DNA from: a virus
DNA: 64,000 nt
Reading direction: 5' to 3' (one strand)
IMG/VR virus record: IMGVR_UViG_3300025127_000022
Span: 12,276 to 76,275 of that record
The position numbers were made by a program, and so were the translations under genes. The first letter of the stretch is position 1, and the number at the start of each line of letters is the position of its first letter. Positions 18,106 through 36,075 of the stretch are shown here, piece after piece. The notes beneath the pieces are model-generated. The model saw nothing but the letters and a program-made list of their open reading frames with translations. It was not told where the DNA came from and searched no databases.

Positions 18106-19746
18106 ATGAAAAAAATGAAAAAGAATTTAATTAACGAAGACATCAGAAAAATGATGGGTCTTATCGATTATGATAGGGGTAAAACTTTAACAGAAAATAA
18201 AGAATCTAATAAATCACAATTATTAAATGAAATTTTTCCCGCATTAGTAGCCTACGGTGCTGTAGCTGCAGGTCTATATAAAGCATGGGAATGGGGAGTA
18301 GACGCTTGGGGTTCTAAAAGTATAGATGCAAGAATAACTGACGCTTTAGACCAGACAACTTGGCCAAAAATCGAGAAGGCTATTAGAGAGACTGAGAAAG
18401 CAACGGGAGAAGATATTGAAGGAAAGTTTGATGTGGCAAGTGCATCAGAAGCTAAAAGAATGGCTAACGATTTAAATGCAGCATTTGATTATACATTCGG
18501 AACAGATGAGGACAAAATAGGTGATACATTTGCTGATATGGGTTCATTTATGGATTTAGCACGTGTTTCTTATGAATATGGTGACCGTCCTGACGGTGAT
18601 TTAGCTTATGAATTAGACGACGAATTGAGTCAATCTGATTTTAAAACTTACGTAAGTAATAATATGAAAAGTAAACCTTTAGCTGTTTTTAATGGTAAAT
18701 CTTACGATAGTCTAGAGAAATTATTAGCTGCTATAGCAGAAATGGCTAAACCAGCTGAGGAAGAAAAAACACCTAAATCAATCATTAAAGAAAAATTTGA
18801 AAATTTCCCATGTGTTCAGGTAGAAATTGAAAACGCAAAAGAAATTAAATACCCTTATAAAGGAAAAGAGGACCGAGTATATATTATCGCAGAAAATGGC
18901 GACCTAATGTTAGTAACAGTAGATGGAAGGTATAAAGCTAAAGTGGGTGGAGAAGTATCTTCAGGTAATATTGAATGTCCAGATGATTTTAGTATTGAAG
19001 ATGAAGGAGAATTAACATTATCAGAAGGTAGATATATTTTTGAACAAAACTTTGGTGGTATTAAATTAAATCCTAAAGGTAAACCTGCTGATGATGCCTC
19101 TGGTGAAGAAGAAGGTGGTGGAAGTTCATCTGGTGGAGGAAGTTCATCTGGTGGGGGAAGTAGATATACTAGAACCGATTTAGATTATATGGATGTTGTA
19201 TCTTGTAATGGTGAAGTAAAAAAAGGTGATAGAGGACAAGTAGTGAAAGACATTCAATCAAAATTAAATGAATCTCCTAAAGTAAATCCTAAATTAAAAG
19301 TAGATGGTATATTCGGTTCAAAAACTGAAGCAGCCATTAAACAAGCGGGGGGGACAAATGTATTTAACTGTGAACTTGCTAAAGCATTAGACGCTGAATC
19401 TAATAAACCTGAAGATAATGTAGCGGGTAAAGAAGAAAAAGATGGTGGTGAAAAAATAAGCCAAGCAGAAGCTAACGAACTAGATAAAGTTACAATAGAA
19501 AAAGAAGGTACTGATAAAGTGACCATTAAAGACCAGATAGCTGATTTAAATCAAGCGATTAGTCAACAACCTACTAAAGATGATTGTAAAGATTTAATTG
19601 CAAGTGCAGCCGCAGGAATAAAGATGGGTGTTCGAGTGAATGACCTTGGTTCATTAAAACAATGTTTTAATTCATATAATTTTTTCCCTTCTATTTCAGC
19701 GGGGAAAGTTAAAAAAACTTACGGAATAAAAGGAAAAGGTAATTAA
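18106..19746 (+). CDS. putative internal virion protein: class-B leader, annexin-like repeat, PG_binding_1 domain
   Basis: GTDEDKI...Y...LxxELDDELS; KKGDRGQVVKDIQSKL...VDGIFGSKTEAAIK. Confidence 0.7.
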   Translation: MKKMKKNLINEDIRKMMGLIDYDRGKTLTENKESNKSQLLNEIFPALVAYGAVAAGLYKAWEWGVDAWGSKSIDARITDALDQTTWPKIEKAIRETEKATGEDIEGKFDVASASEAKRMANDLNAAFDYTFGTDEDKIGDTFADMGSFMDLARVSYEYGDRPDGDLAYELDDELSQSDFKTYVSNNMKSKPLAVFNGKSYDSLEKLLAAIAEMAKPAEEEKTPKSIIKEKFENFPCVQVEIENAKEIKYPYKGKEDRVYIIAENGDLMLVTVDGRYKAKVGGEVSSGNIECPDDFSIEDEGELTLSEGRYIFEQNFGGIKLNPKGKPADDASGEEEGGGSSSGGGSSSGGGSRYTRTDLDYMDVVSCNGEVKKGDRGQVVKDIQSKLNESPKVNPKLKVDGIFGSKTEAAIKQAGGTNVFNCELAKALDAESNKPEDNVAGKEEKDGGEKISQAEANELDKVTIEKEGTDKVTIKDQIADLNQAISQQPTKDDCKDLIASAAAGIKMGVRVNDLGSLKQCFNSYNFFPSISAGKVKKTYGIKGKGN

Positions 19747-19747
19747 T

Positions 19748-19942
19748 ATGAATAAGTTAAAAGAAATATTCTCAAAGGTAACAAGTTGGGTGGACTCGAA
19801 AGGGTTCTCCGCTTTAGCATCTCTAGGAATTGGTATTGGTTTATGGATATTTGGATACAAAATTTATGCTGGAATTGCATTTGGTGTATTCTTAACCAGG
19901 AACTGGGACATTCTCCGAGGATGGTTAAAAAAAATAAATTAA
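19748..19942 (+). CDS. small two-TM membrane protein
   Basis: Hydrophobic Gly-rich hairpin; followed by a terminator. Confidence 0.65.
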   Translation: MNKLKEIFSKVTSWVDSKGFSALASLGIGIGLWIFGYKIYAGIAFGVFLTRNWDILRGWLKKIN

Positions 19943-19944
19943 AG

Positions 19945-19969
19945 AAAAAGGACTTCGGTCCTTTTTTTT
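19945..19969 (+). terminator. intrinsic terminator
   Basis: aaaaggac-ttcg-gtcc-tttttttt. Confidence 0.85.
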
Positions 19970-19996
19970 ATGCTCTAACGTAATATATTTATAGAT

Positions 19997-21001
19997 ATGT
20001 TAGAACTTCTTGAGTCAAAAAATAAAACACATATATTATCTAAAAAACTACCTCTAGAGTTAGATAATCGACTTTATAGTATGATTCACCTAATAGGTGG
20101 AATGGACTTTAGAGACGTGATAAGATTTGCAAATAATGCAAGTTTTGACCAGGTAACAGAACTACAACAGAAGGTAGAACAATTCCCATCAACCATAGAA
20201 GAAATAATGCCTTATGTAGGTGGTTTTCAGTACCTAAAGGACTCAAAAGAATACAATGAAATTTTAGATTTAATCTTTAGTCCTAACCCAGAAAACTTAT
20301 ATGAAGATGTGGAAGTAGGACCTGACGGCCTATACAATACAGACACTAACCCCTATTTTACCAGATACATCACACCAGAATTAAAAAAGATATTATTTAA
20401 AATGTGGGACAAAAAAGGGAGACCTAGTTACACAGATTTAAAATTATTGGGTGTTGATTCTGAAGAGTTATTCAAAGACGAACCGTTTGCGAATGTTCCC
20501 GATATTATAATGCCTGTCTTAATGATAGAATGGGTAGGGGGTATTCAAAATACAGAATTTGCTAAAGATAAGAGTTTTATTACATGGGAAGGTAATACAC
20601 AAGGAAGAGGAGATGGATTAATAAGATTTAGATTAGAACCTACAGGTTTTGATTATTCATTTGATGAACAAGAAAATTTTGGTGACGCGGGTTATTCATG
20701 TTGGTTTCTGAAAATATACATAGATAAAAATTCTATAGTTCCACGTAGTTACATCACCAGTAATGACAAGTTAGAATGGGAAGGGAGCAAGTGGAAAAGT
20801 GGTAAAGGTTATGGGGTGACGGAAGACGGATTTATAAAAATAACTAACTTATTCCCACCAGAGTATCTTAATAAAGAAATGTCATATAGAGACTACACCA
20901 ACCCACAAATGGACCTCATCGAAGGAATGTGGGAAAGTTACACAGAGTTAGCTTGTGAGTACTTCTGTAGTTTTTGTAGAGTGGAAGTAGTCTTAGTTTA
21001 A
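19997..21001 (+). CDS. hypothetical protein
   Basis: 334-aa ORF starting MLELLE. Confidence 0.7.
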   Translation: MLELLESKNKTHILSKKLPLELDNRLYSMIHLIGGMDFRDVIRFANNASFDQVTELQQKVEQFPSTIEEIMPYVGGFQYLKDSKEYNEILDLIFSPNPENLYEDVEVGPDGLYNTDTNPYFTRYITPELKKILFKMWDKKGRPSYTDLKLLGVDSEELFKDEPFANVPDIIMPVLMIEWVGGIQNTEFAKDKSFITWEGNTQGRGDGLIRFRLEPTGFDYSFDEQENFGDAGYSCWFLKIYIDKNSIVPRSYITSNDKLEWEGSKWKSGKGYGVTEDGFIKITNLFPPEYLNKEMSYRDYTNPQMDLIEGMWESYTELACEYFCSFCRVEVVLV

Positions 21002-21189
21002 AGACTTACTTTATCCTCACTGTATTTTTTACCCTCCTTTATAGATTCTAAATAAGCTCTAACTTTAGTACCAAGAGTAAAATTATTAGGGTTTTCTTTT
21101 CTTAAATTTTGTAGTTTTTCCAAGATTTCTATGTAATCATGGATTGTCATTATTTTTTCTTCCATTTTAAATTGTTTGAGTGAACCCAC
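20998..21189 (-). CDS. small hypothetical protein
   Basis: Convergent TTAA overlap with the previous gene; true start is probably downstream. Confidence 0.5.
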   Translation of the reverse strand: MGSLKQFKMEEKIMTIHDYIEILEKLQNLRKENPNNFTLGTKVRAYLESIKEGKKYSEDKVSL

Positions 21190-21382
21190 TTAAATCCAAT
21201 GATAGTTGGTTAGGGTTATTGTTTTTAATTTTTCTTATATACGTATTTCGTTCTTTTCTTTTTTTAATAGTTCTGGTATGAGCCTTTACAAAAGTACCGT
21301 CTTTTCTTCTATATTCTTTTATATGAACTTCAATATACGTTTCCATAACCATAATTTTAAACAATTTTTTATACTTTGTCAC
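21167..21382 (-). CDS. small basic protein with VxxYxRKDGTxVxxHxR motif
   Basis: VHIKEYRRKDGTFVKAHTR; C-terminal QLSLDL. Confidence 0.6.
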   Translation of the reverse strand: MTKYKKLFKIMVMETYIEVHIKEYRRKDGTFVKAHTRTIKKRKERNTYIRKIKNNNPNQLSLDLSGFTQTI

Positions 21383-21404
21383 TATTTATTATAAAAAAAG
21401 TATT

Positions 21405-21752
21405 ATGAATTTAAATCATCCACGTTGGGAAGGACATCAGTTTAATTATAGAAGGTCAAATCCTGTTCACTATAATAACTCAGCTGGTGAAACTTCTAGA
21501 ATTAGAAACTTGCACTCCACTAACACTGAATCAAGTAAGAATCAATTAAATGAATGGGCTAGTTTAAGTTCAGATAAGGGACAACTTAACATGGAACCAG
21601 AAAACCACGCCTTATCTGATGATAGACATGGTTTGGTGGTTAACCATTTAAATGAAGTTAGTCGATATGTTGACCAAGAGTCACTACATGAATTTGTAGA
21701 AGAGGTTAATAAAGTCGAGGAAAGATTAGGGTACGTTAAGAAAAATCGTTAA
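21405..21752 (+). CDS. hypothetical protein
   Basis: 115-aa ORF. Confidence 0.55.
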   Translation: MNLNHPRWEGHQFNYRRSNPVHYNNSAGETSRIRNLHSTNTESSKNQLNEWASLSSDKGQLNMEPENHALSDDRHGLVVNHLNEVSRYVDQESLHEFVEEVNKVEERLGYVKKNR

Positions 21753-22216
21753 GCGTTACCCCAAGTAATTTTTTTAATATCAATCCTTCTTCCTCCCCAT
21801 GCTCTTATATCTTCACAAATACCAAATAATTTAAGATAATTAGCAATTTTTTTCTGGGAAATACTACGAATATGCTCTCTAATTCGTTTGTGGTGTTCGT
21901 GACCCCAAGCTCTATCATAACGGTAATAGTCATTTCTTCCCACTTTAGCTACTTCTTCGATAGGTTTTAAGTTATTACCATCATCATTCCAAGAACCTCT
22001 AGTGGTTGCAGTTCCAGATACAACTATATTAACATATAACTTACTCCAAGAAGTAGGATTAAGTGGCGTTTCGTCTTCATACCAGCGTTCTTCTGTAGTT
22101 CCGATGGTCTGAATTCGAACAGTAATGTCCACACCAGTATCACGGTCTTCTAAACTGTTAAACTTAAATCTTTCTTTCTTAATAATCTGTTGTATTTTTT
22201 TCGGTAATCTTTTCAT
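21749..22216 (-). CDS. early hypothetical protein
   Basis: Preceded by TTTG-N19-TATCTTTG. Confidence 0.7.
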   Translation of the reverse strand: MKRLPKKIQQIIKKERFKFNSLEDRDTGVDITVRIQTIGTTEERWYEDETPLNPTSWSKLYVNIVVSGTATTRGSWNDDGNNLKPIEEVAKVGRNDYYRYDRAWGHEHHKRIREHIRSISQKKIANYLKLFGICEDIRAWGGRRIDIKKITWGNA

Positions 22217-22220
22217 ACTA

Positions 22221-22251
22221 CAAAGATAATAAAAAAATCCTAACCACCAAA
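22221..22251 (-). promoter_or_regulatory. Bacteroidota primary-sigma promoter (-33 TTTG, -7 TAnnTTTG)
   Basis: TTTG (22248-22251), 19-nt spacer, TATCTTTG (22221-22228). Confidence 0.75.
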
Positions 22252-22281
22252 CTAAATGTGAAATAAAATATATTTATTGGT

Positions 22282-23691
22282 ATGAAAATTAAATTATCTG
22301 AAGAACAGTATAAAAAATTGATGAACGAAATAGGTGGGTATGATGACCCAGCTACAGGTATGAGAGATGAACAAGCTATGATGGATAGAGTAATCGAAGC
22401 TTATAAAAATCTCACAAACGGAATGAATATACTTAGTGATTTAATTCCAGGTGTCATAGTACAAGACCGTCTGAGAAACCAACTGATGGAAATTAGAGAA
22501 TCTTTAGTTAATCCGTTAAATGGATTTAGTGCACTATTGAGGGATATCCATGGTCAACAAGATGAAGGACATATGGAAGATACAGATATCGAATTAGATG
22601 AAGGAAGAAAAAAGAAAAGAAAATCTAAAAAGAAAAAATCTAAAAAGAAAAAATCTAAAAAAGGTGATAGGTGTACTAGAATAGCTAAAAGAAAATATGA
22701 TGTATGGCCTTCAGCTTATGCGTCAGGTGCGGTAGTTAGATGTAGGAGAGGAGAGATTTGGAAAGGACTTAACGAAGAAGATATTTCAAATGTTAATGAA
22801 GGTTGGTCTGACGAATATAAAAAATCCATAGATTGTAATAACCCAAAAGGATTCTCACAAAAAGCTCACTGTGACGGTAAAAAAAAAGCGTCACTAGAAG
22901 AAGCTAAAAGAAAAAAAAGAAAATCAAAAAAAAGAAAGTTAACTTCTAAACCTAGTTCTGAAGGCAGTTTACGTGATTGGTTTAAAAGAAAAGGTGCTAA
23001 AGGTAGTACTGGAGGTTGGGTAGATTGTAACGCACCCGATGGTGATGGTGGTTATAAATCCTGTGGTAGACAAAAAGGCGAAAAAAGAAGTAAGTATCCC
23101 GCTTGTAGACCAACACCGTCCGCGTGTAAAAGTAAGGGCAAAGGTAAAAAATGGGGAAAAAAAGCTTCACGTAACGAATCTTTAATGTACCACCTAAAAA
23201 ATAATATTCCTTTAAATGAAAGTGTTTTTAGATATGGGAGTGACTCTCACTTTAACTTAATTAATGACGCTAGAAATTTATTTAAAGAAAATGAGTTACA
23301 ATTAAATCCTGTAGAAAAAGATTTGGTGGAAAGTGATATGGGTAGATTTGGTTATTACCAAAATGAGTTAGTCCCGTTAGACTTACCAATGGAACTTAAT
23401 GAAGCTGAATATAGAGGTAAAAAAGTTACATTAAACAAACCTAAAAGAGGTGGGTCTAAAGCGTATTACGTTTACGTTAAAAATCCAAAAACAGGGAATG
23501 TTAAAAAAGTGGCTTTTGGTTCTTCAGGTCTTAGAGCAAAAATTAATAATCGAGGTGCTGTTAAGAGTTTTGTAGCACGTCATAGATGTAAAGAAAAAAA
23601 CGATAAAACTAAACCAGGTTATTGGTCCTGTAGATTACCTAGATATGCTAAATCTTTAGGATTATCTGGTGGAGGTGGACAATGGTGGTAA
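22282..23691 (+). CDS. multi-module basic protein (putative head-packaged polyprotein)
   Basis: Class-A leader; Lys-rich Cys-containing modules each starting after an LDE/VNE/LEE/LNE site. Confidence 0.7.
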   Translation: MKIKLSEEQYKKLMNEIGGYDDPATGMRDEQAMMDRVIEAYKNLTNGMNILSDLIPGVIVQDRLRNQLMEIRESLVNPLNGFSALLRDIHGQQDEGHMEDTDIELDEGRKKKRKSKKKKSKKKKSKKGDRCTRIAKRKYDVWPSAYASGAVVRCRRGEIWKGLNEEDISNVNEGWSDEYKKSIDCNNPKGFSQKAHCDGKKKASLEEAKRKKRKSKKRKLTSKPSSEGSLRDWFKRKGAKGSTGGWVDCNAPDGDGGYKSCGRQKGEKRSKYPACRPTPSACKSKGKGKKWGKKASRNESLMYHLKNNIPLNESVFRYGSDSHFNLINDARNLFKENELQLNPVEKDLVESDMGRFGYYQNELVPLDLPMELNEAEYRGKKVTLNKPKRGGSKAYYVYVKNPKTGNVKKVAFGSSGLRAKINNRGAVKSFVARHRCKEKNDKTKPGYWSCRLPRYAKSLGLSGGGGQWW

Positions 23692-23695
23692 TAAC

Positions 23696-23956
23696 ATGAA
23701 TTTTCCATTTAAAGAACATACCCAAGATGGGTACCACATTAGAACTTTTTCACAAAAAGTAGATAGTGAAGAATTAATGTGGCATAGAGACAAAGAAGAT
23801 AGAATAGTGGAATCTGTTGGTGACACTAACTGGATGATTCAACTAGATGACAAATTACCACAACCACTAACAGAAAAAGTATTTATACCCAAAGAGGTGT
23901 ATCACAGAGTAATAAAAGGAAATGGTGATTTAACAGTAAAAGTTAAAAAATTATGA
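23696..23956 (+). CDS. cupin-like protein
   Basis: WHRDxEDR and FIPKxxYHRVIKG metal-binding cupin pattern; ATG 23696 follows the upstream stop. Confidence 0.65.
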   Translation: MNFPFKEHTQDGYHIRTFSQKVDSEELMWHRDKEDRIVESVGDTNWMIQLDDKLPQPLTEKVFIPKEVYHRVIKGNGDLTVKVKKL

Positions 23957-24600
23957 AAATTAGAATAACAGAGTCACAATATAATTTAATTCTAGAAGGT
24001 AAAGAAGATAACTTTAAAAGAGTTAAACTTCCTTATGACTATTCTGATTTAGAAAAATTTGTCGGTAGAGAAACCATGTGGGAGCACTATAATCGTCATT
24101 ATAAAGGTTACACCACCAAACTTAATGAAGCGTTTTCCCATAGAAAAAATCCACCTAAAGATATTGTAGGTATTATTAAAAACATTGGTAGGTACGATAA
24201 ATTTACCAGAGATAATGCGGGTGGTTATTATAATCATAGTTTATTCTGGAATTACTTAAGTCCTAAACCTACTAAACCCTCACCAGAATTAAGTAAAAAA
24301 ATAAATGAGGATTTTGGGAGTATGTCTAAATTTAAAAAGAAATTTGACGAAGAGTCTGCTAAAGTTTTTGGTTCAGGTTGGTGCTGGTTAGTATTTAAAA
24401 GTGGTAAACTCAAAGTTATTACTACACCAAACCAAGATAACCCTCTTATGGATAATTTAGGTAAACCTCTTTTAGGGTTAGATGTGTGGGAACACGCTTA
24501 CTATTTAAATTACATGGCAGACCGTAAAAAATACATTAAAAATTTCTGGAAAGTAGTTAACTGGGATACAGTTTCTAAAGAATTTAATTTGGTAGTTTAA
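23953..24600 (+). CDS. sodA: Mn/Fe superoxide dismutase with N-terminal class-A leader
   Basis: LPYxYxxLE, H...H..Y, NAGGxxNHSLFW, FGSGWxWL, NQDNP and DVWEHAYY motifs. Confidence 0.93.
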   Translation: MKIRITESQYNLILEGKEDNFKRVKLPYDYSDLEKFVGRETMWEHYNRHYKGYTTKLNEAFSHRKNPPKDIVGIIKNIGRYDKFTRDNAGGYYNHSLFWNYLSPKPTKPSPELSKKINEDFGSMSKFKKKFDEESAKVFGSGWCWLVFKSGKLKVITTPNQDNPLMDNLGKPLLGLDVWEHAYYLNYMADRKKYIKNFWKVVNWDTVSKEFNLVV

Positions 24601-24619
24601 AAAATTTTACTTATATTTG
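24588..24619 (+). promoter_or_regulatory. Bacteroidota primary-sigma promoter
   Basis: TTTG (24588-24591), 20-nt spacer, TATATTTG (24612-24619). Confidence 0.7.
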
Positions 24620-24644
24620 TATTATAATATTTAAACCGATACAA

Positions 24645-24926
24645 ATGACAGTAAAAGAATTAAAAGAAAAATGTAGAGAACAAGGTCTGAAAGTTTCAGG
24701 TACTAAACAACAACTACTTGACCGATTAAATAATCCTGACAGTGAAGATGTCATGACTCTACCTAACTCTAATAAAGTAATCGTAGGATTTGCACTAAAA
24801 GACCCCAACAAAATTAAACTTAATCCCTTACTTCTTAAAGGATTCGCTCATTTCAAGTATTATTCTTGCGATAAATGGTATTATGAAGTTAATAAAGAAA
24901 AATGGGCTGAAGCGTTAAAATCTTAA
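24645..24926 (+). CDS. SAP-domain protein
   Basis: MTVKELKEKCREQGLKVSGTKQQLLDRL matches the SAP consensus. Confidence 0.8.
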   Translation: MTVKELKEKCREQGLKVSGTKQQLLDRLNNPDSEDVMTLPNSNKVIVGFALKDPNKIKLNPLLLKGFAHFKYYSCDKWYYEVNKEKWAEALKS

Positions 24927-25021
24927 AAAAAAAAGATAAAAAAAGTGACTTATCGTAATTTTTGATATATTTATCTTTGTATTACCTTAACAGGTAAAAC
25001 TTTTACTTTCCTCATCATAAA

Positions 25022-25047
25022 AAAAAGGGACCCTCGGGTCCCTTTTT
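25022..25047. terminator. bidirectional intrinsic terminator
   Basis: aaaaagggaccc-tc-gggtcccttttt. Confidence 0.85.
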
Positions 25048-25141
25048 GTTTTAGATACTTTCTCTCCTTTTTAAAATTTTTAGTAATGTTTATTTAACTA
25101 GTTACATCTATAAATATCATGTAAAAAGCGTAAAATAACCG

Positions 25142-25486
25142 TTACCTCCAAAAAATCTGTATCATTACTAACACTAAAGCAAGTGATAAAGAAACAAATG
25201 TTTTGGTGGTGATACCCTCACCCATAAAAAACCAAGTACACGCAGCAAATATAAAAATTCCTAAACCAAAGCCTAAAAGTCTTTGAGCCCATAGAACATT
25301 ATTAAATCCCTGATAACCAAGTTTAGTGGCTACTATAAAAAAATAACTAACTGGTGCACCCATTAAAGAAAGTACCAGTGGGTTTTTATCAAACCATTTC
25401 CAAATAAATTGGCCATTTAACTGAAACCAAACACATATTTGCCCTACCATGAGGAGTAACATACAAAGTAATATATCTTTATTCAT
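25142..25486 (-). CDS. four-TM small membrane protein (SMR/DMT-like topology)
   Basis: Four hydrophobic helices in 114 aa. Confidence 0.6.
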   Translation of the reverse strand: MNKDILLCMLLLMVGQICVWFQLNGQFIWKWFDKNPLVLSLMGAPVSYFFIVATKLGYQGFNNVLWAQRLLGFGLGIFIFAACTWFFMGEGITTKTFVSLSLALVLVMIQIFWR

Positions 25487-25537
25487 AATTAAAATATAGT
25501 ATTTTTATTTAAACAAGTCCACGATATTTATTATTAT

Positions 25538-28207: not shown

Positions 28208-29151
28208 TCATCTAGGTCTTCTAAACTTTTTTTCATGGCTTGTGCCATATAAGTATACTCTAAACTTTTAGTCACTAGACTATCTACATCCAGTGTTGTT
28301 GTAGTGTTATCTTCATATAATGTCCATTGAGGTTCTACAGTTGTTTGTGTTGTTGGTGTTGGATTTCCATCATATACGTCTGCTCTTACCCCAAAATCTA
28401 TAGGTATTACATTACAATTATCAGCACTTTTTTTTAGTTGTTGTGCTCTTTCTTTGTCCCTACCTTTAAAGTAATCTGAATTAGGTTGTTTAATGGTTAA
28501 ATAATGGTCTAAAACAATTTGTGTAATTTTAGAAGGTACATCAAGTGTAAGAGAGTCTACTTTCCTATCTTCAACATCCCACCAACTCATCTCTATACTT
28601 TTATTTTTTTCAAAATACCAATGAACACCAAATTTTTCATCTGTACCTAATTTTATGACGTATAGTAATACCCCGTCATTTGAATAATTGTAAAAGGCTT
28701 TGTCATCTTCTCTACTACTCGTACACCACTTAGTTCCCGCACCATAAATTTTAGAAGACTCATAACTTAATGGTTTTATTATTAACCATTCTTTGTCTTT
28801 ATATAAAATAGAGATTTCTTTTTTTAAATCTTTTTTCTTTAGTTTTAATTCAGCATAAACTAATTGTTCATGTAAATCTCTAAAATCTTTAATTAGTGAT
28901 ATATCCTTAATATTAGTTCTATTATTATTTAAGTGTTCATTAAAATCTCTTAATGCACGTAAATTTTCTATACCAATCAAATGAGTTATTTCAGATGTGA
29001 CATATTTTTTAAACTCAGAAGATTCTTCTTTAAATCGTTTAAGTAATAATGTTAGAAACTTATTAGTTTTTGAAGGGTCTAGTTCTGCTAGGATATCAAT
29101 AATATTAATAACCAAGCCCTTATGTTGGTTTTTTAAATCTTTTTTTCCCAT
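28204..29151 (-). CDS. phage protein with YGxGTKWC motif
   Basis: WLIIKPLSYESSKIYGAGTKWCT; minus-strand TATTTATA at 29203-29210. Confidence 0.7.
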   Translation of the reverse strand: MGKKDLKNQHKGLVINIIDILAELDPSKTNKFLTLLLKRFKEESSEFKKYVTSEITHLIGIENLRALRDFNEHLNNNRTNIKDISLIKDFRDLHEQLVYAELKLKKKDLKKEISILYKDKEWLIIKPLSYESSKIYGAGTKWCTSSREDDKAFYNYSNDGVLLYVIKLGTDEKFGVHWYFEKNKSIEMSWWDVEDRKVDSLTLDVPSKITQIVLDHYLTIKQPNSDYFKGRDKERAQQLKKSADNCNVIPIDFGVRADVYDGNPTPTTQTTVEPQWTLYEDNTTTTLDVDSLVTKSLEYTYMAQAMKKSLEDLDD

Positions 29152-29234
29152 AACATAATTGTATTAATTTTTTTTAGTAAAGGAAATGTCTTTTGCTTAC
29201 ATTATAAATACTTATTCTCAAAAATAATATCATT

Positions 29235-29381
29235 ATGGAATTGTACGACATTATAGAATTACTAAATGAAGCCATTCAAGACGAGGATTGGGATTTAGTA
29301 GAAACATGTAAGAACAAGTTAGAGGAGGCTTATGATTTAAACGACGGTAGTCTAGACAATTATTTTGAAATAGAGGACTAG
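29235..29381 (+). CDS. 48-aa highly acidic protein (not in ORF track)
   Basis: MELYDIIELLNEAIQDEDWDLVETCKNKLEEAYDLNDGSLDNYFEIED; CTAG overlap with the convergent gene. Confidence 0.55.
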   Translation: MELYDIIELLNEAIQDEDWDLVETCKNKLEEAYDLNDGSLDNYFEIED

Positions 29382-30289
29382 TTAATTCTTTCCATCCACA
29401 CACTTATAGAACCCGAGGTTCCAAAAATACCATTCATTGTAAGGTTATTTAATTCTCCTTCATCGATGAAAGACAACCCTACTTGCCCTGAATAGTTACC
29501 ACCAAAAGTCACACATTCGTATAATGTAAGATTATAAAGATTATTACCAGTATTGTTAGAGAAAGAGTAAGTATTAGGATTGGAACCGTTTATATCATAG
29601 GAAACACCACTTACAAAGTTAATAGTATCATTAGGATAAACTGGTGTCATACCATCATCATATCTAGTGATAACCCAAGAAGTACCATTTAATTGTAAAT
29701 GTCCAGGAACTGTACCAGTCACTAAATCTACGGTTCCACCGTATTCATAGTCAAATTGACTGTCGTAAGTACAAGAGGGACAACTATAGCCACTTCTTAC
29801 AAAAGTTAAAACACTGTAGTAGTGGTAATTATCACCATGATTAGATTCATTAGATTCGTATACTTTAACATTTAAAACATCATCAGTGAAATTTAAAATT
29901 CCTAAACTTCTCGCAGACCCATAGGGAGGTATACCTAAAAGTCTATACTGTGTCCTACTTCCACTACCATGAGTACTATACTCATAAGTGTTACCATTAT
30001 CTAAAGTAAAAATTCCATCCTCAAAATACCAAGTAGTAACATTTTGTTCTATGTTGTCTACATCCACTAAAGAACCTCCGAATATATCTAAATTAGATAC
30101 TGTCTGATTACCATCAAAATGGTCATAATAAATCAAATCTCCTGTAGTTAAATTTTCAGTATAAACTTTTGCATTAACTAAAACCCACTCAGTACCTTCA
30201 ATGGTCGGTATGTCTACCTCAAATTCATATTTTTCACAACTCGTGAAAACTAAACTCAATAAAGTAAGATATAAAAAAATTCTGTTCAT
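29378..30289 (-). CDS. lipoprotein with two lipocalin-like repeats
   Basis: LVFTS-C lipobox; IEGTEW and LNGTSW motifs; promoter TTTG-N20-TATCTTTG at 30331-30362. Confidence 0.7.
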   Translation of the reverse strand: MNRIFLYLTLLSLVFTSCEKYEFEVDIPTIEGTEWVLVNAKVYTENLTTGDLIYYDHFDGNQTVSNLDIFGGSLVDVDNIEQNVTTWYFEDGIFTLDNGNTYEYSTHGSGSRTQYRLLGIPPYGSARSLGILNFTDDVLNVKVYESNESNHGDNYHYYSVLTFVRSGYSCPSCTYDSQFDYEYGGTVDLVTGTVPGHLQLNGTSWVITRYDDGMTPVYPNDTINFVSGVSYDINGSNPNTYSFSNNTGNNLYNLTLYECVTFGGNYSGQVGLSFIDEGELNNLTMNGIFGTSGSISVWMERIN

Positions 30290-30385
30290 AGATAAATGTT
30301 TTAAATGTGTGTATTTTGTCTTTAATAGTACAAAGATAAATAATTATTCTTTAATAACCAAATATTTATAGGAAAAAAGTATAAA

Positions 30386-30709
30386 ATGGGAAACGCATTT
30401 AAATTAAGTCTTCATCTTGAACATATTGTAAAAGATATAGTTAACAAGAAAAAAGTGCACTACACTGAAGAAGGTTTAAGAGAAAACATATTTACCTTTC
30501 TTGATACTATTTATGATAATAGGAAGAAGTTTAAATTGACCGAAGCAACAAAATTAATTAAGGGAGGTTTTAGGGACCAATTAATTGAAGAAGCTGTATG
30601 TGAAATGTCAGATGATGAAGATTATCTTACTTCTACTATTAATAAAAAAATTAATAACCTTTCAAAACACTACATAAGAGAGTGGATAAATAAAAAAATA
30701 AGCAAATGA
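30386..30709 (+). CDS. late hypothetical protein
   Basis: TATTTATA at 30363-30370. Confidence 0.65.
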   Translation: MGNAFKLSLHLEHIVKDIVNKKKVHYTEEGLRENIFTFLDTIYDNRKKFKLTEATKLIKGGFRDQLIEEAVCEMSDDEDYLTSTINKKINNLSKHYIREWINKKISK

Positions 30710-31026
30710 AAAAAGTAATAAGACTTACTGAATCTGAATTAGTTAGAATTATAGAGAATTTAACCTTAGGTCATGAATTAGAAGAAAAAAAAGAAACCTC
30801 TAAAACAAAAAGTGAACCATTACCTAAAAGTGCTAATCCCGTAGCTAAAGATATTTTTAAAAAAATTGAAGGACATTTAAATGCAACTAAAGGAGCTTTC
30901 AGCTTAAAAGATAAAAATGTAACTGAAAATTTTGAAGACGATAAGTTGTATAAGAAATGGAATTGGAAAACCAATAATGGTAAAGTTAATGTAACTGTTA
31001 CTGTTGATGTTAAAATGAATGATTAA
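30706..31026 (+). CDS. class-A leader protein
   Basis: MKKVIRLTESELVRIIE. Confidence 0.7.
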   Translation: MKKVIRLTESELVRIIENLTLGHELEEKKETSKTKSEPLPKSANPVAKDIFKKIEGHLNATKGAFSLKDKNVTENFEDDKLYKKWNWKTNNGKVNVTVTVDVKMND

Positions 31027-31028
31027 TA

Positions 31029-32120
31029 ATGAATAAGGTAACAGTAAATGAAACTGAATTAATTACAATCATTAAAACAATGATTAGTGAACAAGAAGGT
31101 ACTGCTGGAGGTGGTGTTGAAGCTGGAACTTCAGATGCTGGTGGTACTGGTGCAAAAACGTGGGAAACTGGTTTAACCAGAGGTTCAGCTAATCCTGCTG
31201 GTGGTGGTGTAAGTCACTGGGCAGACTCTTATTCTATTAGTAGAGGTAAAGCAAATCCTTTATGGGAAGATAGTGATGAAGAAGGTATGTTTGATATGGA
31301 GGTAGAAGATGATGGGTTTACTACAGCAGATAGAGATATTAGGTCTTATTATAACAAACCTTCATTTGATGAGATGAAAAGAAAACATTCATTAGATTAT
31401 GATACAGAGTTTGATGTGGACTTACTAAATGAAAGTAAGTGGTACAATACTTTTTTAGATTTTGTGGGGATTGTAGACCCAACAGGTATCGCTGATGGTA
31501 TTAACGCCATGTCTTACTTTAGACAAGGTGATATTCTATATGGAATGTTAAGTTTGATATCTCTAGTACCATATGTTGGAGACGCTATAGCTAAACCATT
31601 TATTGGTTTAATGAAAGCAGGAAAAATAAATGCTAAAGCTATTAACGCTGGACTTAAAAGTGGTAATGCTGCTAAAGTAGCTTCGGAGATGGGTAAAACA
31701 AAGGCTGGTAAAGCTGTTCTTGAAAGTATGAAAAATCCATCAACACAAGGATTCTTAGGTAAGATAATATCTAAAATAGGGAAATTACCAGGATTTAGGG
31801 CTTTCTCTAAAGACGCAAAGACATATGTTAGAGTATTCACTCAAGCAGCAAAACAAACAGGAAAAGTTAAAATATTCCGTAAGAGTGGTGGATTACTAAC
31901 TAGAATGCAAAGAAAAGGATTATTAAACAGAACAAAATTATATTCTAAATTTATAAACTACCTTACAGGAACTGGTGTAGGAGCAGCAGCAATAGAAGGT
32001 ATGGATGAAGGAACATTAAATGGCAAATTTGAGGAATTTTTAAAGTCAGACGAGGGAACCAGTTTCTTTAACGACTTAAATAAACAAGACCAAGGAGATT
32101 TTGTGGATGCCTTAAAGTAA
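31029..32120 (+). CDS. class-A leader protein with pre-toxin TG-like segment
   Basis: LDFVGIVDPTGIADGINA...GD...GMLSLISLVPYVGD. Confidence 0.65.
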   Translation: MNKVTVNETELITIIKTMISEQEGTAGGGVEAGTSDAGGTGAKTWETGLTRGSANPAGGGVSHWADSYSISRGKANPLWEDSDEEGMFDMEVEDDGFTTADRDIRSYYNKPSFDEMKRKHSLDYDTEFDVDLLNESKWYNTFLDFVGIVDPTGIADGINAMSYFRQGDILYGMLSLISLVPYVGDAIAKPFIGLMKAGKINAKAINAGLKSGNAAKVASEMGKTKAGKAVLESMKNPSTQGFLGKIISKIGKLPGFRAFSKDAKTYVRVFTQAAKQTGKVKIFRKSGGLLTRMQRKGLLNRTKLYSKFINYLTGTGVGAAAIEGMDEGTLNGKFEEFLKSDEGTSFFNDLNKQDQGDFVDALK

Positions 32121-32170
32121 TAAACAATAAATTTTAATAGATAACTAAATATTTATAAAAAAAAACAAAA

Positions 32171-34528
32171 ATGGAAAAACCTAAAATGTCATTGACCGAA
32201 GAACTAAGAAAAATAGACCATTTAAATGGCTATGATAAAGAATTTACCTTAGAAGAGTCAAAAAAATACAGTGAAGAAACTAAAAATCGTACTTACGATT
32301 TAAACATATTAACAGAAGAAGAAGCTAAAATCAAATATAAAGATTTTTTAAATGAGGGAAAAAAACCTGAACTACTTCTAGAATTTTTACCTGCTATTGC
32401 TAGTGGTATCGTTAGACTTTTACCTTTTGCTGGAAGAGCTCTTGCAAGTGTAGGTAGGTTCGGAGCTAGAGGGGGTAAACTATTTAAAAAGTTTCCTAAA
32501 ATGGGAAAAGCTTTAGGTTTTGGTAAAATTTCAACAAAAGGATTAAACCTTGGTAAGGCAACTCCATTAGCTGCTAGAGGTTTTACAGGTGCGGGTGGTA
32601 AAATGGGTGGTAAAGTAGTACCAGGTTTACTTAATGCACAAGCTACTAGAGGATTAGGTTCTTTACTTACATGGGGAACTGGAGCGTGGTTGGTTAACTC
32701 TTTTGCAAGTGGTAGTAGTACCCCTTTACCAGGAGACGCGGTAGCGGGTCAAGAAGATTGGGCAAATGGTGAACAACCATCAAAAGAAGATTGGATGTCT
32801 ATGTGTTTTGCACCCGAGTACTATGAAAGTTTAGTACAAATGGATAATGATGATAGTAATGTAACCGTAACTTTTCAGTCAGAAGCAGATATTGTACAAA
32901 TCGCAACAGCTATTAATGACGCTACTGAAGGTGGTGAAAAATATTTTGGTAAAGGTATTGTTGATTTTTTAACTTTTGATGTAGCCGCGGGAGCAGGTAC
33001 TGACGAAGACACTATTTTTAGAGCCTTCCAACAAATTAATACTGTTGGGGACTGTTCACATCTAGCTAAAATGTATCAACTTAAATTTGATGTTCCTTTA
33101 ATAGAGGAATTATATGATGAATTAGATGAAGCTGACTTAAATCAAATTTACAATATTCTAAAAGGAAAACCATTAGCAATTATTAATGGTAAAAGAATAT
33201 TCACTAATGATGATTTAGATGAGTTATTAGAAAAAGAAGCTAAAGAGGTAATTGAAAGACCTGAAGGTTTACCAGCTTATAGATTAAAATTTAATAGTTT
33301 ATTTGGAGGAGCACTGGTAGATGTATTTGTAGGTGTGGATGACGCGGGAACTTCAGCATTAGCAGCTGTATTTAAATCTGGTAGTAAAGATTATTTGGGA
33401 CAATTCCAATATGTAGAAAACTCTGAAGAAAAATACTTTTTCCAAACACCAACAGGTGAAGTAGGTGCAGTTACTGATGAAGACGACAAAGCAAAACTTG
33501 CAAAAATATTCGGTAAAGCAGATGATGAATCAGACGCGGAAAAAGATATATTAATTTTAACTAAAGATATTGAAGTTGATGGTACAATATATGATGTAGA
33601 CGAAAATTTGGCAGACATCGAAGGACCAGAAGGTACTGCTGATGAATATATAGATGAGTTAGTTAGAGATAACCCTACTACAGCTAAAAGAAAACCTACC
33701 GCACTCCAAGGAGCTGCTATCGCATTAGCGATGGGTGTTAAAGATTTTGAGGTTTTAACAGAATCAATCACAGGATTAGCTGAAGTTTTAGGTGAAAGTA
33801 AATTAGTCGTAGAACAAAAATACACCGTTAACTTTGATAAAGATGATGACAAATACTCAATTCGAAGAGTAAGAAGAACAAGTGGAAATACTGAAGAAAA
33901 ACCAGAAACTACAAAAGATGATAGTAGTAGTAGTTCATCTTATGGTGTAGCACCAACGTTAACTGCAGTTGCAGCTGGTAATGGGATAATCAAGAAAGGT
34001 ATGAGAGGAGATTCAGTAGCAGCAATACAAAGAATGTTAAATATGAGTCCTATAACTGGTATATTTAATTCAGCTACAGAAAAAGAAGTGAGAGATTACC
34101 AATCTTCAAATAGACTTAAAGTAGATGGTATAGTTGGTCCAGAAACTGCTGGTTTAATGGTTAAAGGAATGGATTTTAAAGGAAATGAAAAACCTACACC
34201 AGAAAGAGAAGTCGCTTCTTCGGAAACCAAATCTACTGAAGAAGAAATAAAAAATACTTCTGGAAGATTTAGTAGTAAAGATGCCGCTGAACAAAGTTTA
34301 AAGAATCTAGAAAAGATAAACGATACCAAAGCTACAAAAAGTGAATGTGTAATGGTTATAGCTGCAGCATCTAAAGCACTACCAACAATAGGAGGACCTA
34401 ACACTTATAAAGTATTACAATACTGTTACGCAGCGTACAACTTTGGTTTAGGAAAAGAAACTAGACGTGTTAAAAGAGCGTATGGAATTAAAGGTGACGG
34501 TGATTTAAGAAATAAAAGAAGAAGATAA
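32171..34528 (+). CDS. putative internal virion protein: class-B leader, amphipathic peptide, annexin-like repeat, PG_binding_1 domain
   Basis: GAGTDEDTI...Y...F...LIEELYDEL; KKGMRGDSVAAIQRML...LKVDGIVGPET; paralog of 18106..19746. Confidence 0.7.
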   Translation: MEKPKMSLTEELRKIDHLNGYDKEFTLEESKKYSEETKNRTYDLNILTEEEAKIKYKDFLNEGKKPELLLEFLPAIASGIVRLLPFAGRALASVGRFGARGGKLFKKFPKMGKALGFGKISTKGLNLGKATPLAARGFTGAGGKMGGKVVPGLLNAQATRGLGSLLTWGTGAWLVNSFASGSSTPLPGDAVAGQEDWANGEQPSKEDWMSMCFAPEYYESLVQMDNDDSNVTVTFQSEADIVQIATAINDATEGGEKYFGKGIVDFLTFDVAAGAGTDEDTIFRAFQQINTVGDCSHLAKMYQLKFDVPLIEELYDELDEADLNQIYNILKGKPLAIINGKRIFTNDDLDELLEKEAKEVIERPEGLPAYRLKFNSLFGGALVDVFVGVDDAGTSALAAVFKSGSKDYLGQFQYVENSEEKYFFQTPTGEVGAVTDEDDKAKLAKIFGKADDESDAEKDILILTKDIEVDGTIYDVDENLADIEGPEGTADEYIDELVRDNPTTAKRKPTALQGAAIALAMGVKDFEVLTESITGLAEVLGESKLVVEQKYTVNFDKDDDKYSIRRVRRTSGNTEEKPETTKDDSSSSSSYGVAPTLTAVAAGNGIIKKGMRGDSVAAIQRMLNMSPITGIFNSATEKEVRDYQSSNRLKVDGIVGPETAGLMVKGMDFKGNEKPTPEREVASSETKSTEEEIKNTSGRFSSKDAAEQSLKNLEKINDTKATKSECVMVIAAASKALPTIGGPNTYKVLQYCYAAYNFGLGKETRRVKRAYGIKGDGDLRNKRRR

Positions 34529-35852: not shown

Positions 35853-35908
35853 ATAATTCAAAGAACTTATATAAATACACCCGATAAATTAAAAAATTTA
35901 TCTTAGGG

Positions 35909-35985: not shown

Positions 35986-35993
35986 ATATCTAG

Positions 35994-36067: not shown

Positions 36068-36075
36068 ATGTTGGG

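What the first reader, a model, noticed from the sequence alone, without database searches (positions are those of the whole stretch)
18106..34528. Two paralogous phage proteins combining an annexin-like repeat with a peptidoglycan-binding domain
Seen: 18106..19746 and 32171..34528 share the order leader / hydrophobic peptide / annexin-like repeat / linker / PG_binding_1 / shared Cys-containing C-terminal domain (TKxxC..xIAxA...LxxCxxxYNF...VKxxYGIKGxG). The repeats (about 18448-18655, A.DLNAAF..FGTDEDKI...Y....LAYELDDELS; about 32888-33160, GAGTDEDTI...Y...F...LIEELYDEL) match the annexin consensus GxGTDExxLI...Y...xxL..dl..ElSG. Known: annexins bind acidic phospholipids through Ca2+; they are mainly eukaryotic, with scattered bacterial examples. 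Inference: these are ejected proteins that bridge peptidoglycan and membrane, such as a Ca2+-dependent DNA-entry conduit or a membrane-resealing factor. I know of no described phage example.
Basis: partly seen in the sequence, partly recalled or inferred. Interest (0 to 1): 0.85.

Follow-up and report, generated by a model that had tools for sequence, protein, structure and literature searches.

The report
Phage annexin-repeat, cell-wall-binding protein pair
An uncultured marine T4-like giant phage encodes two related proteins that each join a genuine annexin repeat (a calcium-dependent lipid-binding unit best known from animal cells) to a cell-wall-binding domain. They are probably loaded into the capsid and released onto the host envelope at infection, and I found no published report of annexins in viruses.

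Summary
ORFs 18106-19746 (546 aa) and 32171-34528 (785 aa) are paralogues with the same domain order.

The annexin call holds at family level:
- Profiles of both families hit annexins in the PDB (E 1.9e-7 and 2.4e-6).
- The domain profile finds 736 proteins; all 10 hits tested are Pfam Annexin.
- hhalign to a Bacteroidota membrane-anchored annexin family gives 98.4% probability.
- AlphaFold models match only annexins at the top (Z 9.1-7.3; unrelated folds from 5.8).

The two sequences on their own miss Pfam's Annexin model.

PG_binding_1 is confirmed in both proteins.

The window also holds a T4-type head module, including the Peptidase_S77 prohead protease. Both proteins start with a conserved leader, shared with an unrelated neighbour, that contains conserved L-x-E sites. 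They are therefore probably capsid cargo clipped by that protease. Ejection, calcium-dependent lipid binding and wall-membrane bridging are inferred, not shown.

I found no viral annexin in the literature and none in 50,697 deposited phage genomes.

This scan has noted the same kind of protein before, in at least 20 other genomes.

Verdict: a new variant of known domains, of moderate to high interest.

The parts
18106..19746 (+). Gene for P0001 (546 aa). Probable true start is 18115 (Met4).
   Evidence: ORF. 27 homologues in metagenomes. The family alignment starts at Met4.
18106..18231 (+). P0001 N-terminal leader (aa 1-42) with L-x-E sites LTE30|N and LNE42|I. Putative capsid-targeting propeptide.
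   Evidence: 14 of the 17 invariant columns of the family lie in aa 4-30, and E42 is nearly invariant. The leader is shared with unrelated ORF 16075-17412(-), 53% identity over 30 aa, E 3e-7. Sites listed.
18232..18285 (+). P0001 weakly hydrophobic Gly/Ala-rich peptide (aa 43-60)
   Evidence: Kyte-Doolittle 17-residue maximum 1.5. Modelled as helix 45-60.
18286..18417 (+). P0001 three helices upstream of the repeat (aa 61-104). Possibly a degenerate partial annexin repeat.
   Evidence: pLDDT 82-92. The family profile aligns this stretch to repeat 3 of annexin XII. Not established.
18433..18669 (+). P0001 annexin-type repeat (aa 110-188), helices A-E, with F-G132-T133 ... D172
   Evidence: Profile A2 against the PDB: annexin XII E 1.9e-7, annexin A5 2.7e-4. 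AF2 pLDDT 85-95. VIA Z 5.7, rmsd 2.5, 73/73 residues of annexin I domain 1. Motif positions.
18775..19074 (+). P0001 beta-rich middle domain (aa 224-323). C236 is nearly invariant; C291 (IECP motif) is conserved in many members. Fold unassigned.
   Evidence: Strands in the model. Conserved columns. This part was barely tested, so no fold assignment follows.
19183..19410 (+). P0001 PG_binding_1 domain (aa 360-435)
   Evidence: Pfam 20.6 bits, just under the cut-off of 23. 21 of 22 orthologues match, best E 3e-13. Fold Z 9.2 to the AP3 endolysin PG-binding domain and 8.1 to phiKZ gp144.
19453..19746 (+). P0001 shared helical C-terminal domain with two Cys (aa 450-546), plus stop codon
   Evidence: BLASTP to P0002, E 3e-15 together with the PG-binding domain. 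Helices 453-539. No informative structural or Atlas match.
32171..34528 (+). Gene for P0002 (785 aa)
   Evidence: ORF. 21 homologues at 38-86% identity. Alignment A1.
32171..32383 (+). P0002 N-terminal leader (aa 1-71) with L-x-E sites LEE29|S and LLE71|F
   Evidence: M1, K5, L8, E10, E11 and E71 are invariant in 18 orthologues. Cross-hit with the P0001 leader HMM. Net charge -4.
32384..32716 (+). P0002 hydrophobic peptide (aa 72-88), Gly-rich basic stretch (aa 89-160: 15 K/R, no D/E) and second hydrophobic peptide (aa 161-182)
   Evidence: Conserved G95, G101, P109, G161, G169, G171.
32882..33163 (+). P0002 annexin-type repeat (aa 238-331) with G274-A-G-T277 ... D316. Includes a conserved stretch (ATEGGEKYFGKG) before the GxGT loop.
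   Evidence: Profile A3 against the PDB: the top 41 hits are all annexins, best E 2.4e-6. 736 database hits, of which 10 of 10 tested are Pfam Annexin. hhalign to the Bacteroidota annexin family: 98.4% probability, E 1.1e-14. AF2 pLDDT 85, pTM 0.79. Foldseek top 50 are all annexins. VIA Z 9.1-7.3 for annexins, unrelated folds from 5.8.
33164..33220 (+). Conserved beta-hairpin after the repeat (KPLAIINGK, aa 332-350), also present in P0001
   Evidence: K333 and P334 are invariant. Strands in the model. Aligned between the paralogues.
33968..34174 (+). P0002 PG_binding_1 domain (aa 600-668)
   Evidence: Pfam 44.5 bits against a cut-off of 23. PDB profile hits to SleB, phiKZ gp144 and endolysins, E about 2e-9.
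34313..34528 (+). P0002 shared C-terminal domain with two Cys (C726, C752 invariant) and a polybasic tail RNKRRR
55083..55799 (+). T4-type prohead protease, the candidate enzyme for cutting the L-x-E sites
   Evidence: Pfam Peptidase_S77, 83.2 bits. phrog_207 head maturation protease. It sits between Portal_T4 (51676-53499) and the Gp23 capsid gene (57651-59474).
16075..17412 (-). Otherwise unrelated 445-aa protein carrying the same N-terminal leader
   Evidence: BLASTP finds only the first 30 residues (E 3e-7). Leader HMM E 6.6e-9.

Best explanation
SHOWN. The two genes are ancient paralogues kept side by side in a group of uncultured marine T4-like giant phages. Each encodes a beads-on-a-string protein with this order:
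- a conserved N-terminal leader containing L/I-x-E sites;
- a weakly hydrophobic Gly/Ala-rich peptide;
- one annexin-type five-helix repeat that keeps the GxGT...(38 residues)...D calcium-site signature;
- flexible linkers;
- a PG_binding_1 domain;
- a shared helical C-terminal domain with two cysteines.

The closest relatives of the repeat are membrane-anchored two-repeat annexins encoded on Bacteroidota chromosomes.

INFERRED.
1. The leader acts like the capsid-targeting propeptide of T4 internal proteins and brings the proteins into the prohead core.
2. The phage's Peptidase_S77 protease cuts after Glu at the conserved L-x-E sites. The mature protein then begins at or near the hydrophobic peptide.
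3. At infection the proteins leave the capsid with or ahead of the DNA.
4. In the calcium-rich periplasm of a marine Bacteroidota host, they grip a membrane through the hydrophobic peptide and the annexin loop. They grip the cell wall through PG_binding_1. This holds wall and membrane together at the entry site.

Whether this serves DNA entry, sealing of the puncture or exclusion of other phages cannot be told from sequence.
For: Paralogy: BLASTP E 3e-15 and 2e-9. Both paralogues lie on the same related contigs (L008 with L012, L009 with L011).

Annexin identity:
- Profile A2 hits annexin XII at E 1.9e-7, with three repeats matched in register.
- Profile A3 has only annexins as its top 41 PDB hits, best E 2.4e-6.
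- The same profile finds 736 proteins, and 10 of 10 tested carry PF00191 at E 1e-5 to 1e-75.
- hhalign to a Bacteroidota family gives 98.4% probability, E 1.1e-14. The two members of that family scanned (P0093, P0105) pass Pfam's Annexin cut-off.
- 5 of 22 and 3 of 18 orthologues hit PF00191 weakly on their own.

Fold:
- AF2 pLDDT is 85-95.
- The Foldseek top 50 are all annexins.
- VIA gives annexin VI Z 9.1 and annexin I domain 1 Z 8.2, rmsd 2.2, 73/73 residues. Unrelated folds start at Z 5.8.

Calcium-site signature: G276, T277 and D316 are invariant in 18 orthologues.

PG-binding domain.

Capsid cargo:
- Peptidase_S77, Portal_T4 and Gp23 are in the window.
- gp21-type proteases cut after L/I-X-E, and a short N-terminal sequence targets T4 internal proteins to the head (PMC9026906, PMC3012670).
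- 14 of the 17 invariant columns of the P0001 family are in the leader, and E42 and E71 are conserved.
- The leader is shared with an unrelated protein.
- A TATTTATA motif lies upstream of both genes and of the protease and scaffold-like genes.

Against ordinary Sec insertion: P0002 has a 71-aa highly charged N-tail and a +15 stretch after its first hydrophobic segment.
Against: - Neither window protein reaches Pfam's Annexin model on its own (no hit at E<=10), and phmmer against the PDB finds no annexin.
- The annexin E-values against multi-repeat targets are sums over repeats. The best single-repeat E-values against PDB chains are only 0.03-0.08.
- In P0002 it is not settled which segment is helix A. 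The AF2 model uses aa 238-253. Alignment to P0001 and to the Bacteroidota family puts it at about aa 256-270, which AF2 left unstructured with pLDDT under 50.
- In the P0001 family the GTDE motif varies (GTNE, GAGE, GQGE), so calcium binding may not be general.
- The leaders are 30-70 aa, against 10 aa in T4.
- T4 internal proteins go to the cytoplasm, where a wall-binding domain would be useless.
- L/I-x-E is a short motif.
- No virion proteome, cultured relative or lipid-binding data exist.
Confidence: 0.45

Rival explanations
1. The proteins are not virion cargo. They are made during infection and inserted into the host inner membrane by their weakly hydrophobic segment, as a signal anchor or a releasable SAR-like anchor. 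The annexin repeat, PG-binding domain and Cys domain then sit in the periplasm. There they would act in lysis timing, envelope stabilisation or superinfection exclusion.
For: - PG_binding_1 and conserved cysteine pairs point to a periplasmic workplace.
- The Gly/Ala-rich, weakly hydrophobic segments resemble SAR anchors (my own knowledge).
- The closest cellular relatives are membrane-anchored by an N-terminal transmembrane helix.
- PHROG matches are to endolysin families, though only through the PG-binding domain.
Against: - The 42-71 aa charged leaders before the hydrophobic segment are unlike signal anchors. They are the most conserved part of the protein and are shared with a protein that has no hydrophobic segment.
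- P0002 has a +15 stretch after its first hydrophobic segment, which by the positive-inside rule should stay in the cytoplasm.
- Some family members lack the hydrophobic segment altogether, or carry it at the C-terminus.
- No catalytic domain was found.
Confidence: 0.25
2. The proteins are capsid-internal, but the annexin repeat has been re-used as a plain helical module for contacts inside the head or with DNA. It would have no calcium- or lipid-binding role. The basic stretches would bind DNA, as T4 internal proteins do.
For: - P0002 has a +15 Gly-rich stretch and a polybasic C-terminus.
- The GTDE motif is not conserved across the P0001 family.
- A shared fold does not show a shared function (note).
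Against: - The calcium-site signature (G276, T277, D316) is invariant across the P0002 family down to 38% identity.
- The constant pairing with PG_binding_1 across distant phage relatives (P0106, P0161, P0177) points to an envelope role rather than a DNA-packing role.
Confidence: 0.15
3. The annexin resemblance is a chance motif in an unrelated helical domain.
For: The single sequences miss Pfam Annexin and PDB annexins. Helical domains often give middling structural scores (note).
Against: Two separately built family profiles hit annexins: A2, the P0001 family alone, and A3, mainly the P0002 family with the P0001 domain as one of nine rows. A3's top 41 PDB hits are all annexins and its database hits are annexins. 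hhalign gives E 1.1e-14. Structural matches are to annexins alone at the top and cover a whole repeat.
Confidence: 0.03

Closest known systems
Bacterial annexins (Kodavali et al. 2014, PMC3894181). The closest are membrane-anchored two-repeat proteins on Bacteroidota chromosomes (Ferruginibacter, Lacibacter, Chitinophagales; alignment A5).
   Same: The repeat is the same type, including the DEL..E...I...KP ending (hhalign 98.4% probability, E 1.1e-14). A hydrophobic segment lies N-terminal to the repeat. The phylum matches the probable host.
   Different: The phage proteins have one repeat, not two. They add a long leader with L-x-E sites, a PG_binding_1 domain and a Cys-containing C-terminal domain. 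They are encoded by a virus. The 2014 survey found no annexins in viruses and does not mention peptidoglycan-binding fusions.
Eukaryotic annexins (A4, A5, A6, XII) and alpha-giardins; Pfam PF00191
   Same: The five-helix repeat fold (Z 9.1-7.3), the GxGT-38-D/E calcium-site signature, and profile-level sequence similarity.
   Different: There is a single repeat instead of the four-repeat disc. The single sequences fall below Pfam's cut-off. P0002 has extra conserved sequence before the GxGT loop. Calcium and lipid binding are untested.
T4 internal proteins IPI-III and Alt, with their capsid-targeting sequence and gp21 processing (PMC9026906, PMC3012670)
   Same: An N-terminal leader shared by unrelated proteins, L/I-x-E sites, and a Peptidase_S77 protease with a gp20/gp23 head module in the same genome.
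   Different: The leaders are three to seven times longer. The cargo carries envelope-binding domains, not anti-restriction or ADP-ribosylating activities. Packaging and cleavage are not shown.
Phage endolysins and virion-associated wall hydrolases with PG_binding_1 (phiKZ gp144, Burkholderia AP3 endolysin)
   Same: The PG_binding_1 domain (Z 8.1-9.2; Pfam).
   Different: No catalytic domain was detected in either protein.
Environmental protein P0076 (408 aa, JGI metagenome)
   Same: It joins PG_binding_1 to annexin repeats.
   Different: The order is reversed, with three canonical repeats. It has no leader, no hydrophobic peptide and no Cys domain. Its source organism is unknown.

Membership tests
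Annexin repeat (PF00191) | Significant sequence relationship to accepted annexins | tested here: met
   Family profiles hit annexin XII at E 1.9e-7 and annexin VI at E 2.4e-6, with 41 of 41 top hits being annexins. 10 of 10 tested database hits are PF00191. hhalign gives E 1.1e-14 to a Bacteroidota family whose two scanned members pass Pfam's cut-off. Caveat: the two window sequences alone give no PF00191 hit at E<=10. Only 5/22 and 3/18 orthologues give weak hits.
Annexin repeat (PF00191) | Five-helix (A-E) repeat fold of about 70 residues | tested here: met
   Tested on predicted models only. P0002 domain: Z 9.1 to annexin VI; Z 8.2, rmsd 2.2, 73/73 residues to annexin I domain 1; Foldseek top 50 all annexins. 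P0001: Z 5.7, 73/73 residues. The identity of helix A in P0002 is ambiguous.
Annexin repeat (PF00191) | Type II calcium-site signature GxGT-(38 residues)-D/E | tested here: met
   P0002 has G274-A-G276-T277 ... D316. G276, T277 and D316 are invariant and G274 is nearly so. P0001 meets it only partly: T-F-G132-T133 ... D172, and the motif varies in its family.
Annexin repeat (PF00191) | Ca2+-dependent binding to acidic phospholipids | not testable with these tools
   Needs liposome co-sedimentation with and without Ca2+.
Canonical (eukaryotic-type) annexin | Core of four repeats forming a disc | tested here: not met
   There is one clear repeat per protein. A possible degenerate partial repeat lies upstream in P0001. 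I therefore file these as single-repeat, bacterial-type annexin-domain proteins, not as canonical annexins.
PG_binding_1 (PF01471) | Pfam model at its curated cut-off, and the three-helix fold | tested here: met
   P0002 scores 44.5 bits against a cut-off of 23. P0001 scores 20.6 bits, just under, but its model matches PG-binding domains at Z 8.1-9.2. 21 of 22 orthologues match, best E 3e-13.
PG_binding_1 (PF01471) | Binding to peptidoglycan | not testable with these tools
   Needs a sacculus pull-down.
T4-type capsid-targeted, protease-processed head cargo | N-terminal propeptide ending in L/I-x-E, and a Peptidase_S77 protease in the genome | tested here: met
   Sites are LTE30 and LNE42 in P0001, and LEE29 and LLE71 in P0002. 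E42 and E71 are conserved. Peptidase_S77 scores 83.2 bits. The motif is short, so this is weak on its own.
T4-type capsid-targeted, protease-processed head cargo | Leader is portable between unrelated proteins | tested here: met
   ORF 16075-17412(-) shares only the 30-aa leader (E 3e-7; HMM E 6.6e-9).
T4-type capsid-targeted, protease-processed head cargo | Presence in virions, cleavage at the site, and ejection | not testable with these tools
   No cultured relative exists. Needs virion proteomics.
SAR or signal-anchor periplasmic phage proteins | Short basic N-tail followed directly by the anchor, with charge distribution obeying the positive-inside rule | tested here: inconclusive
   The charged leaders are 42 and 71 aa long. 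P0002 has +15 after its first hydrophobic segment. These are simple charge counts only; no topology predictor was available.

The most novel reading that the evidence does not exclude
These are the first viral annexins. They would be capsid-delivered, calcium-dependent membrane grips that the phage injects into the periplasm to clamp inner membrane to cell wall around the DNA entry site. There they would steady the entry channel or reseal the puncture, a bacterial-virus counterpart of annexin-mediated membrane repair in animal cells.
Probability: 0.2. Interest if true: 0.8.

Novelty: new variant of a known kind. Interest (0 to 1): 0.6.

Why it matters
- Annexins were long held to be eukaryotic. 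A few dozen bacterial examples are known, mostly in Bacteroidota, and the 2014 survey found none in viruses.
- A conserved family of phage proteins with a true annexin repeat extends the family to viruses. It also links the viral copies to the host phylum's own membrane-anchored annexins.
- If these proteins are capsid cargo that acts on the envelope, they give T4-like giant phages a kind of ejected protein not described for T4. T4's internal proteins act in the cytoplasm.
- They also provide a tractable handle on how DNA entry is secured at the inner membrane: a small domain, a clear calcium-site mutant and a lipid-binding assay.

Tried and rejected
- Single sequences against Pfam, PHROGs and the PDB gave only PG-binding hits and no annexin.
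- tblastn of both proteins, of the P0002 annexin domain and of P0161 against 50,697 deposited phage genomes found no match, or PG-binding-domain matches only.
- Foldseek with the whole 546-aa model gave annexins at the top but with weak E-values (0.04-0.5) and overextended alignments. The domain-only model was cleaner.
- The ESM Atlas gave nothing usable for the C-terminal domain of P0001 or for aa 350-600 of P0002. These parts remain unassigned.
- A complex prediction of the two annexin domains as a heterodimer gave no answer (score 0.00). This is not evidence either way.
- The third 'GTNE' candidate outside the window (L015:7002-7409) matched over only 13-16 residues around the motif (hhalign 23% probability to A5, 0.2% to A3). 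It had no Pfam hit at E<=0.01 and was not found by profile A3. It is not supported as an annexin repeat.
- The A5 alignment was too variable for a pattern scan, so a single protein was used instead.
- I considered a glycine-zipper pore or a fusion-peptide role for the hydrophobic segments. Nothing here tests either.

Full report
**What is there**

The window carries two ORFs on the + strand: 18106-19746 (546 aa, P0001) and 32171-34528 (785 aa, P0002).

BLASTP of one against the other gives collinear matches:
- the GTDED region, E 2e-9;
- the peptidoglycan-binding region plus the Cys-containing C-terminus, E 3e-15;
- the N-terminal leader, weakly, E 0.094.

Both have many intact relatives in marine and other aquatic metagenomes: 21 for P0002 at 38-86% identity and 27 for P0001. 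Some lie on contigs of 245-298 kb. These are therefore real, conserved genes of giant phages.

The two paralogues sit together, about 14 kb apart, on related IMG/VR contigs (L008 with L012, L009 with L011). The duplication is therefore old and both copies are kept. The record that holds the window is a 76-kb fragment, estimated 23% complete.

**Is it an annexin repeat?**

The two sequences alone do not reach Pfam's Annexin model (no hit at E<=10). Nor do they reach any annexin chain in the PDB.

Family profiles do.
- The P0001-family profile (A2, 22 sequences) hits annexin XII at E 1.9e-7 and annexin A5 at 2.7e-4. Each annexin repeat aligns in the same register: helix A, then G-x-G-T-D-E, then Y, L and E-L-S.
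- A domain-only profile (A3: the P0002 domain, seven IMG/VR orthologues and the P0001 domain) has annexins as all of its top 41 PDB hits, best E 2.4e-6.
- These whole-chain E-values add up several repeats. The best single-repeat values are 0.03-0.08.

Stronger evidence comes from the search of 1.84 billion representatives.
- It found 736 proteins at E<=0.001 and 116 at E<=1e-10, many with 4-10 matched repeats.
- All ten hits that I scanned carry PF00191, at whole-protein E-values from 1e-5 to 1e-75.
- Among the hits is a family of about 230-250 aa proteins with an N-terminal transmembrane helix and two annexin-like repeats.
- These lie on chromosomes of Bacteroidota: Ferruginibacter, Lacibacter sp. 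MH-610 and other Chitinophagales.
- The two members of that family that I scanned (P0093, P0105) pass Pfam's Annexin cut-off.
- hhalign of the phage domain against this family gives 98.4% probability, E 1.1e-14, over 89 columns.
- Five of 22 and three of 18 orthologues also hit PF00191 weakly on their own.

**Fold**

AlphaFold2 models are confident in this part.
- P0001 has pLDDT 85-95 for aa 60-210, with helices at 113-127, 135-143, 148-158, 166-173 and 176-188.
- The P0002 domain has pLDDT 85 and pTM 0.79.

For the P0002 domain:
- The Foldseek top 50 are all annexins or annexin-A2 fusion constructs (E 0.012-0.15, probability 0.91-1.0).
- The Foldseek-independent search puts annexin VI and A2 at Z 9.1, giardins at 8.9 and 8.8, and annexin I domain 1 at Z 8.2 (rmsd 2.2, all 73 residues).
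- The annexin-like domain of astrotactin-2 scores 7.5. Unrelated folds start at 5.8.

The P0001 model gives the same family at Z 5.7, with 73/73 residues aligned.

One uncertainty remains in P0002. The model uses aa 238-253 as helix A. Sequence alignment to P0001 and to the Bacteroidota family places helix A at about aa 256-270, a strongly conserved stretch (ATEGGEKYFGKG...) that AlphaFold left unstructured.

**Calcium site**

The annexin type II signature, GxGT followed 38 residues later by an acidic residue, is present.
- P0002 has G274-A-G-T277 ... D316. G276, T277 and D316 are invariant in 18 orthologues.
- P0001 has F-G132-T133 ... D172.
- In the wider P0001 family the motif drifts (GTNE, GAGE, GQGE).

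Binding itself cannot be tested here.

**Peptidoglycan-binding domain and the rest**

- P0002 scores 44.5 bits on PG_binding_1 against a cut-off of 23.
- P0001 scores 20.6 bits, just below the cut-off. Its model matches PG-binding domains of phage endolysins at Z 8.1-9.2, and 21 of 22 orthologues match the Pfam model.
- No catalytic domain was found.
- Three parts have no informative match: the beta-rich middle domain of P0001, aa 350-600 of P0002, and the shared C-terminal domain with its two cysteines.

**Context and the leader**

The window holds a T4-type head module:
- large terminase (49614-51338);
- Portal_T4 (51676-53499);
- Peptidase_S77 prohead protease (55083-55799);
- a scaffold-like gene;
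- Gp23 major capsid protein (57651-59474).

The nearest cultured capsid proteins are from Microcystis phage Mel-JY01 (43% identity) and Flavobacterium phage immuto (39%), with Rhodothermus phage RM378 further off at 36%.

T4's gp21 protease cuts after L/I-X-E. A short N-terminal sequence targets unrelated internal proteins to the T4 head (PMC9026906, PMC3012670).

In these proteins:
- 14 of the 17 invariant columns of the P0001 family lie in residues 4-30.
- L-x-E sites sit at E30 and E42 in P0001 and at E29 and E71 in P0002. E42 is nearly invariant and E71 is invariant.
- The last site lies directly before the hydrophobic peptide in both proteins.
- The otherwise unrelated neighbour ORF 16075-17412(-) shares the same 30-residue leader (E 3e-7).
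- A TATTTATA motif lies 11-47 nt upstream of both genes, of the protease gene and of the scaffold-like gene.

Together these make capsid loading and protease clipping the most likely reading. None of it is direct evidence.

Ordinary Sec insertion looks awkward, especially for P0002. It has a 71-aa highly charged N-tail, and a stretch of 15 K/R with no acidic residue follows its first hydrophobic segment.

**Mechanism**

Shown: the domain make-up, the paralogy, the conservation and the genomic company.

Inferred:
1. The proteins are loaded into the prohead by the leader.
2. They are clipped at L-x-E.
3. They are released at infection.
4. They then act in the periplasm, where PG_binding_1 holds the wall, and the hydrophobic peptide plus the annexin loop hold a membrane.

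Seawater has about 10 mM Ca2+ (my own knowledge). A calcium-bridged lipid contact would therefore be permanently available in the periplasm of a marine host.

The main rival is a membrane-anchored periplasmic protein made during infection.

**Wider family and novelty**

The same layout recurs in more distant phage proteins: leader, Gly/Ala-rich hydrophobic segment, one annexin repeat, a KP-x-I-x-N-G-K hairpin and a PG-binding domain. Examples are P0106, P0161 and P0177.

On novelty:
- BFVD holds one close structural match, an uncharacterised 801-aa protein of an uncultured phage.
- No deposited phage genome in the 50,697-record collection matched the annexin domain.
- The 2014 survey of bacterial annexins states that none were found in viruses (PMC3894181).
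- My literature searches found no later report.
- This scan has already noted annexin plus wall-binding phage proteins in at least 20 other genomes. Those notes agree with this report but are not independent evidence.

**Verdict**

The annexin and PG-binding assignments are supported. The 'ejected bridge' function is plausible and indirectly supported, but untested.

It is a new variant of known domains: single-repeat, bacterial-type annexin modules in a viral, probably capsid-delivered, wall-binding protein.

Noticed in passing
window 23953-24600 (+): An Fe/Mn superoxide dismutase (Pfam Sod_Fe_N and Sod_Fe_C) with an N-terminal extension MKIRITESQYNLILE. This resembles a second leader type seen on several neighbouring ORFs (22282, 14186, 30706, 31029, 34542).
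   Followed up: partly
window, e.g. 18071, 32150, 55062, 55857, 9549, 12735, 13569, 19986, 30363, 43649, 44451: TATTTATA occurs 17 times on the + strand, and 12 of these lie within 60 nt upstream of a + strand start codon. They include the prohead protease gene, the scaffold-like gene and both annexin genes. This is a candidate phage promoter element. The 9-mer ATATTTATA is only modestly enriched (9 found, 4.4 expected).
   Followed up: partly
L015:7002-7409 (G000 coordinates, 5 kb before the window): A 135-aa ORF with a leader and an SGPGTNEKAV motif, next to a Peptidase_M15_3 gene (L015:7416-7889). It matches annexin profiles over only 13-16 residues, so an annexin repeat is not supported.
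   Followed up: yes
window 39284-41320 (-) and 41519-43384 (+): A phage-encoded two-AAA+ ATP-dependent protease or chaperone-like protein (phrog_4871, E 1e-241), next to a protein that starts with the Hsp70-type GIDLGTTNS motif (phrog_22485).
   Followed up: no
window 35907-36162 (-): A cluster of three tRNA genes: Ile(TAT), Arg(TCT) and Leu(TAA). The first and third are unusually long, at 94 and 91 nt.
   Followed up: no
P0076 (environmental protein, JGI; not in the window): A 408-aa protein with PG_binding_1 followed by three canonical annexin repeats. The pairing of these two domains has therefore arisen at least twice, in different orders.
   Followed up: partly
L016-L042 (Bacteroidota genomes): A chromosomal family of about 230-250 aa proteins with an N-terminal transmembrane helix and two annexin-like repeats, each ending in KP. 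It is widespread in Chitinophagales, including a Lacibacter sp. MH-610 chromosome. I know of no described function.
   Followed up: partly
P0130 (344 aa) and P0033-P0042, L011/L012: Family variants. P0130 carries the Gly/Ala-rich hydrophobic region at the C-terminus. The P0034 type lacks it entirely and has a shorter repeat with a KG-x-GT-N-E-D-K-F motif.
   Followed up: no
window 34499-34528: P0002 and most orthologues end in a conserved polybasic tail (RNKRRR or similar).
   Followed up: no
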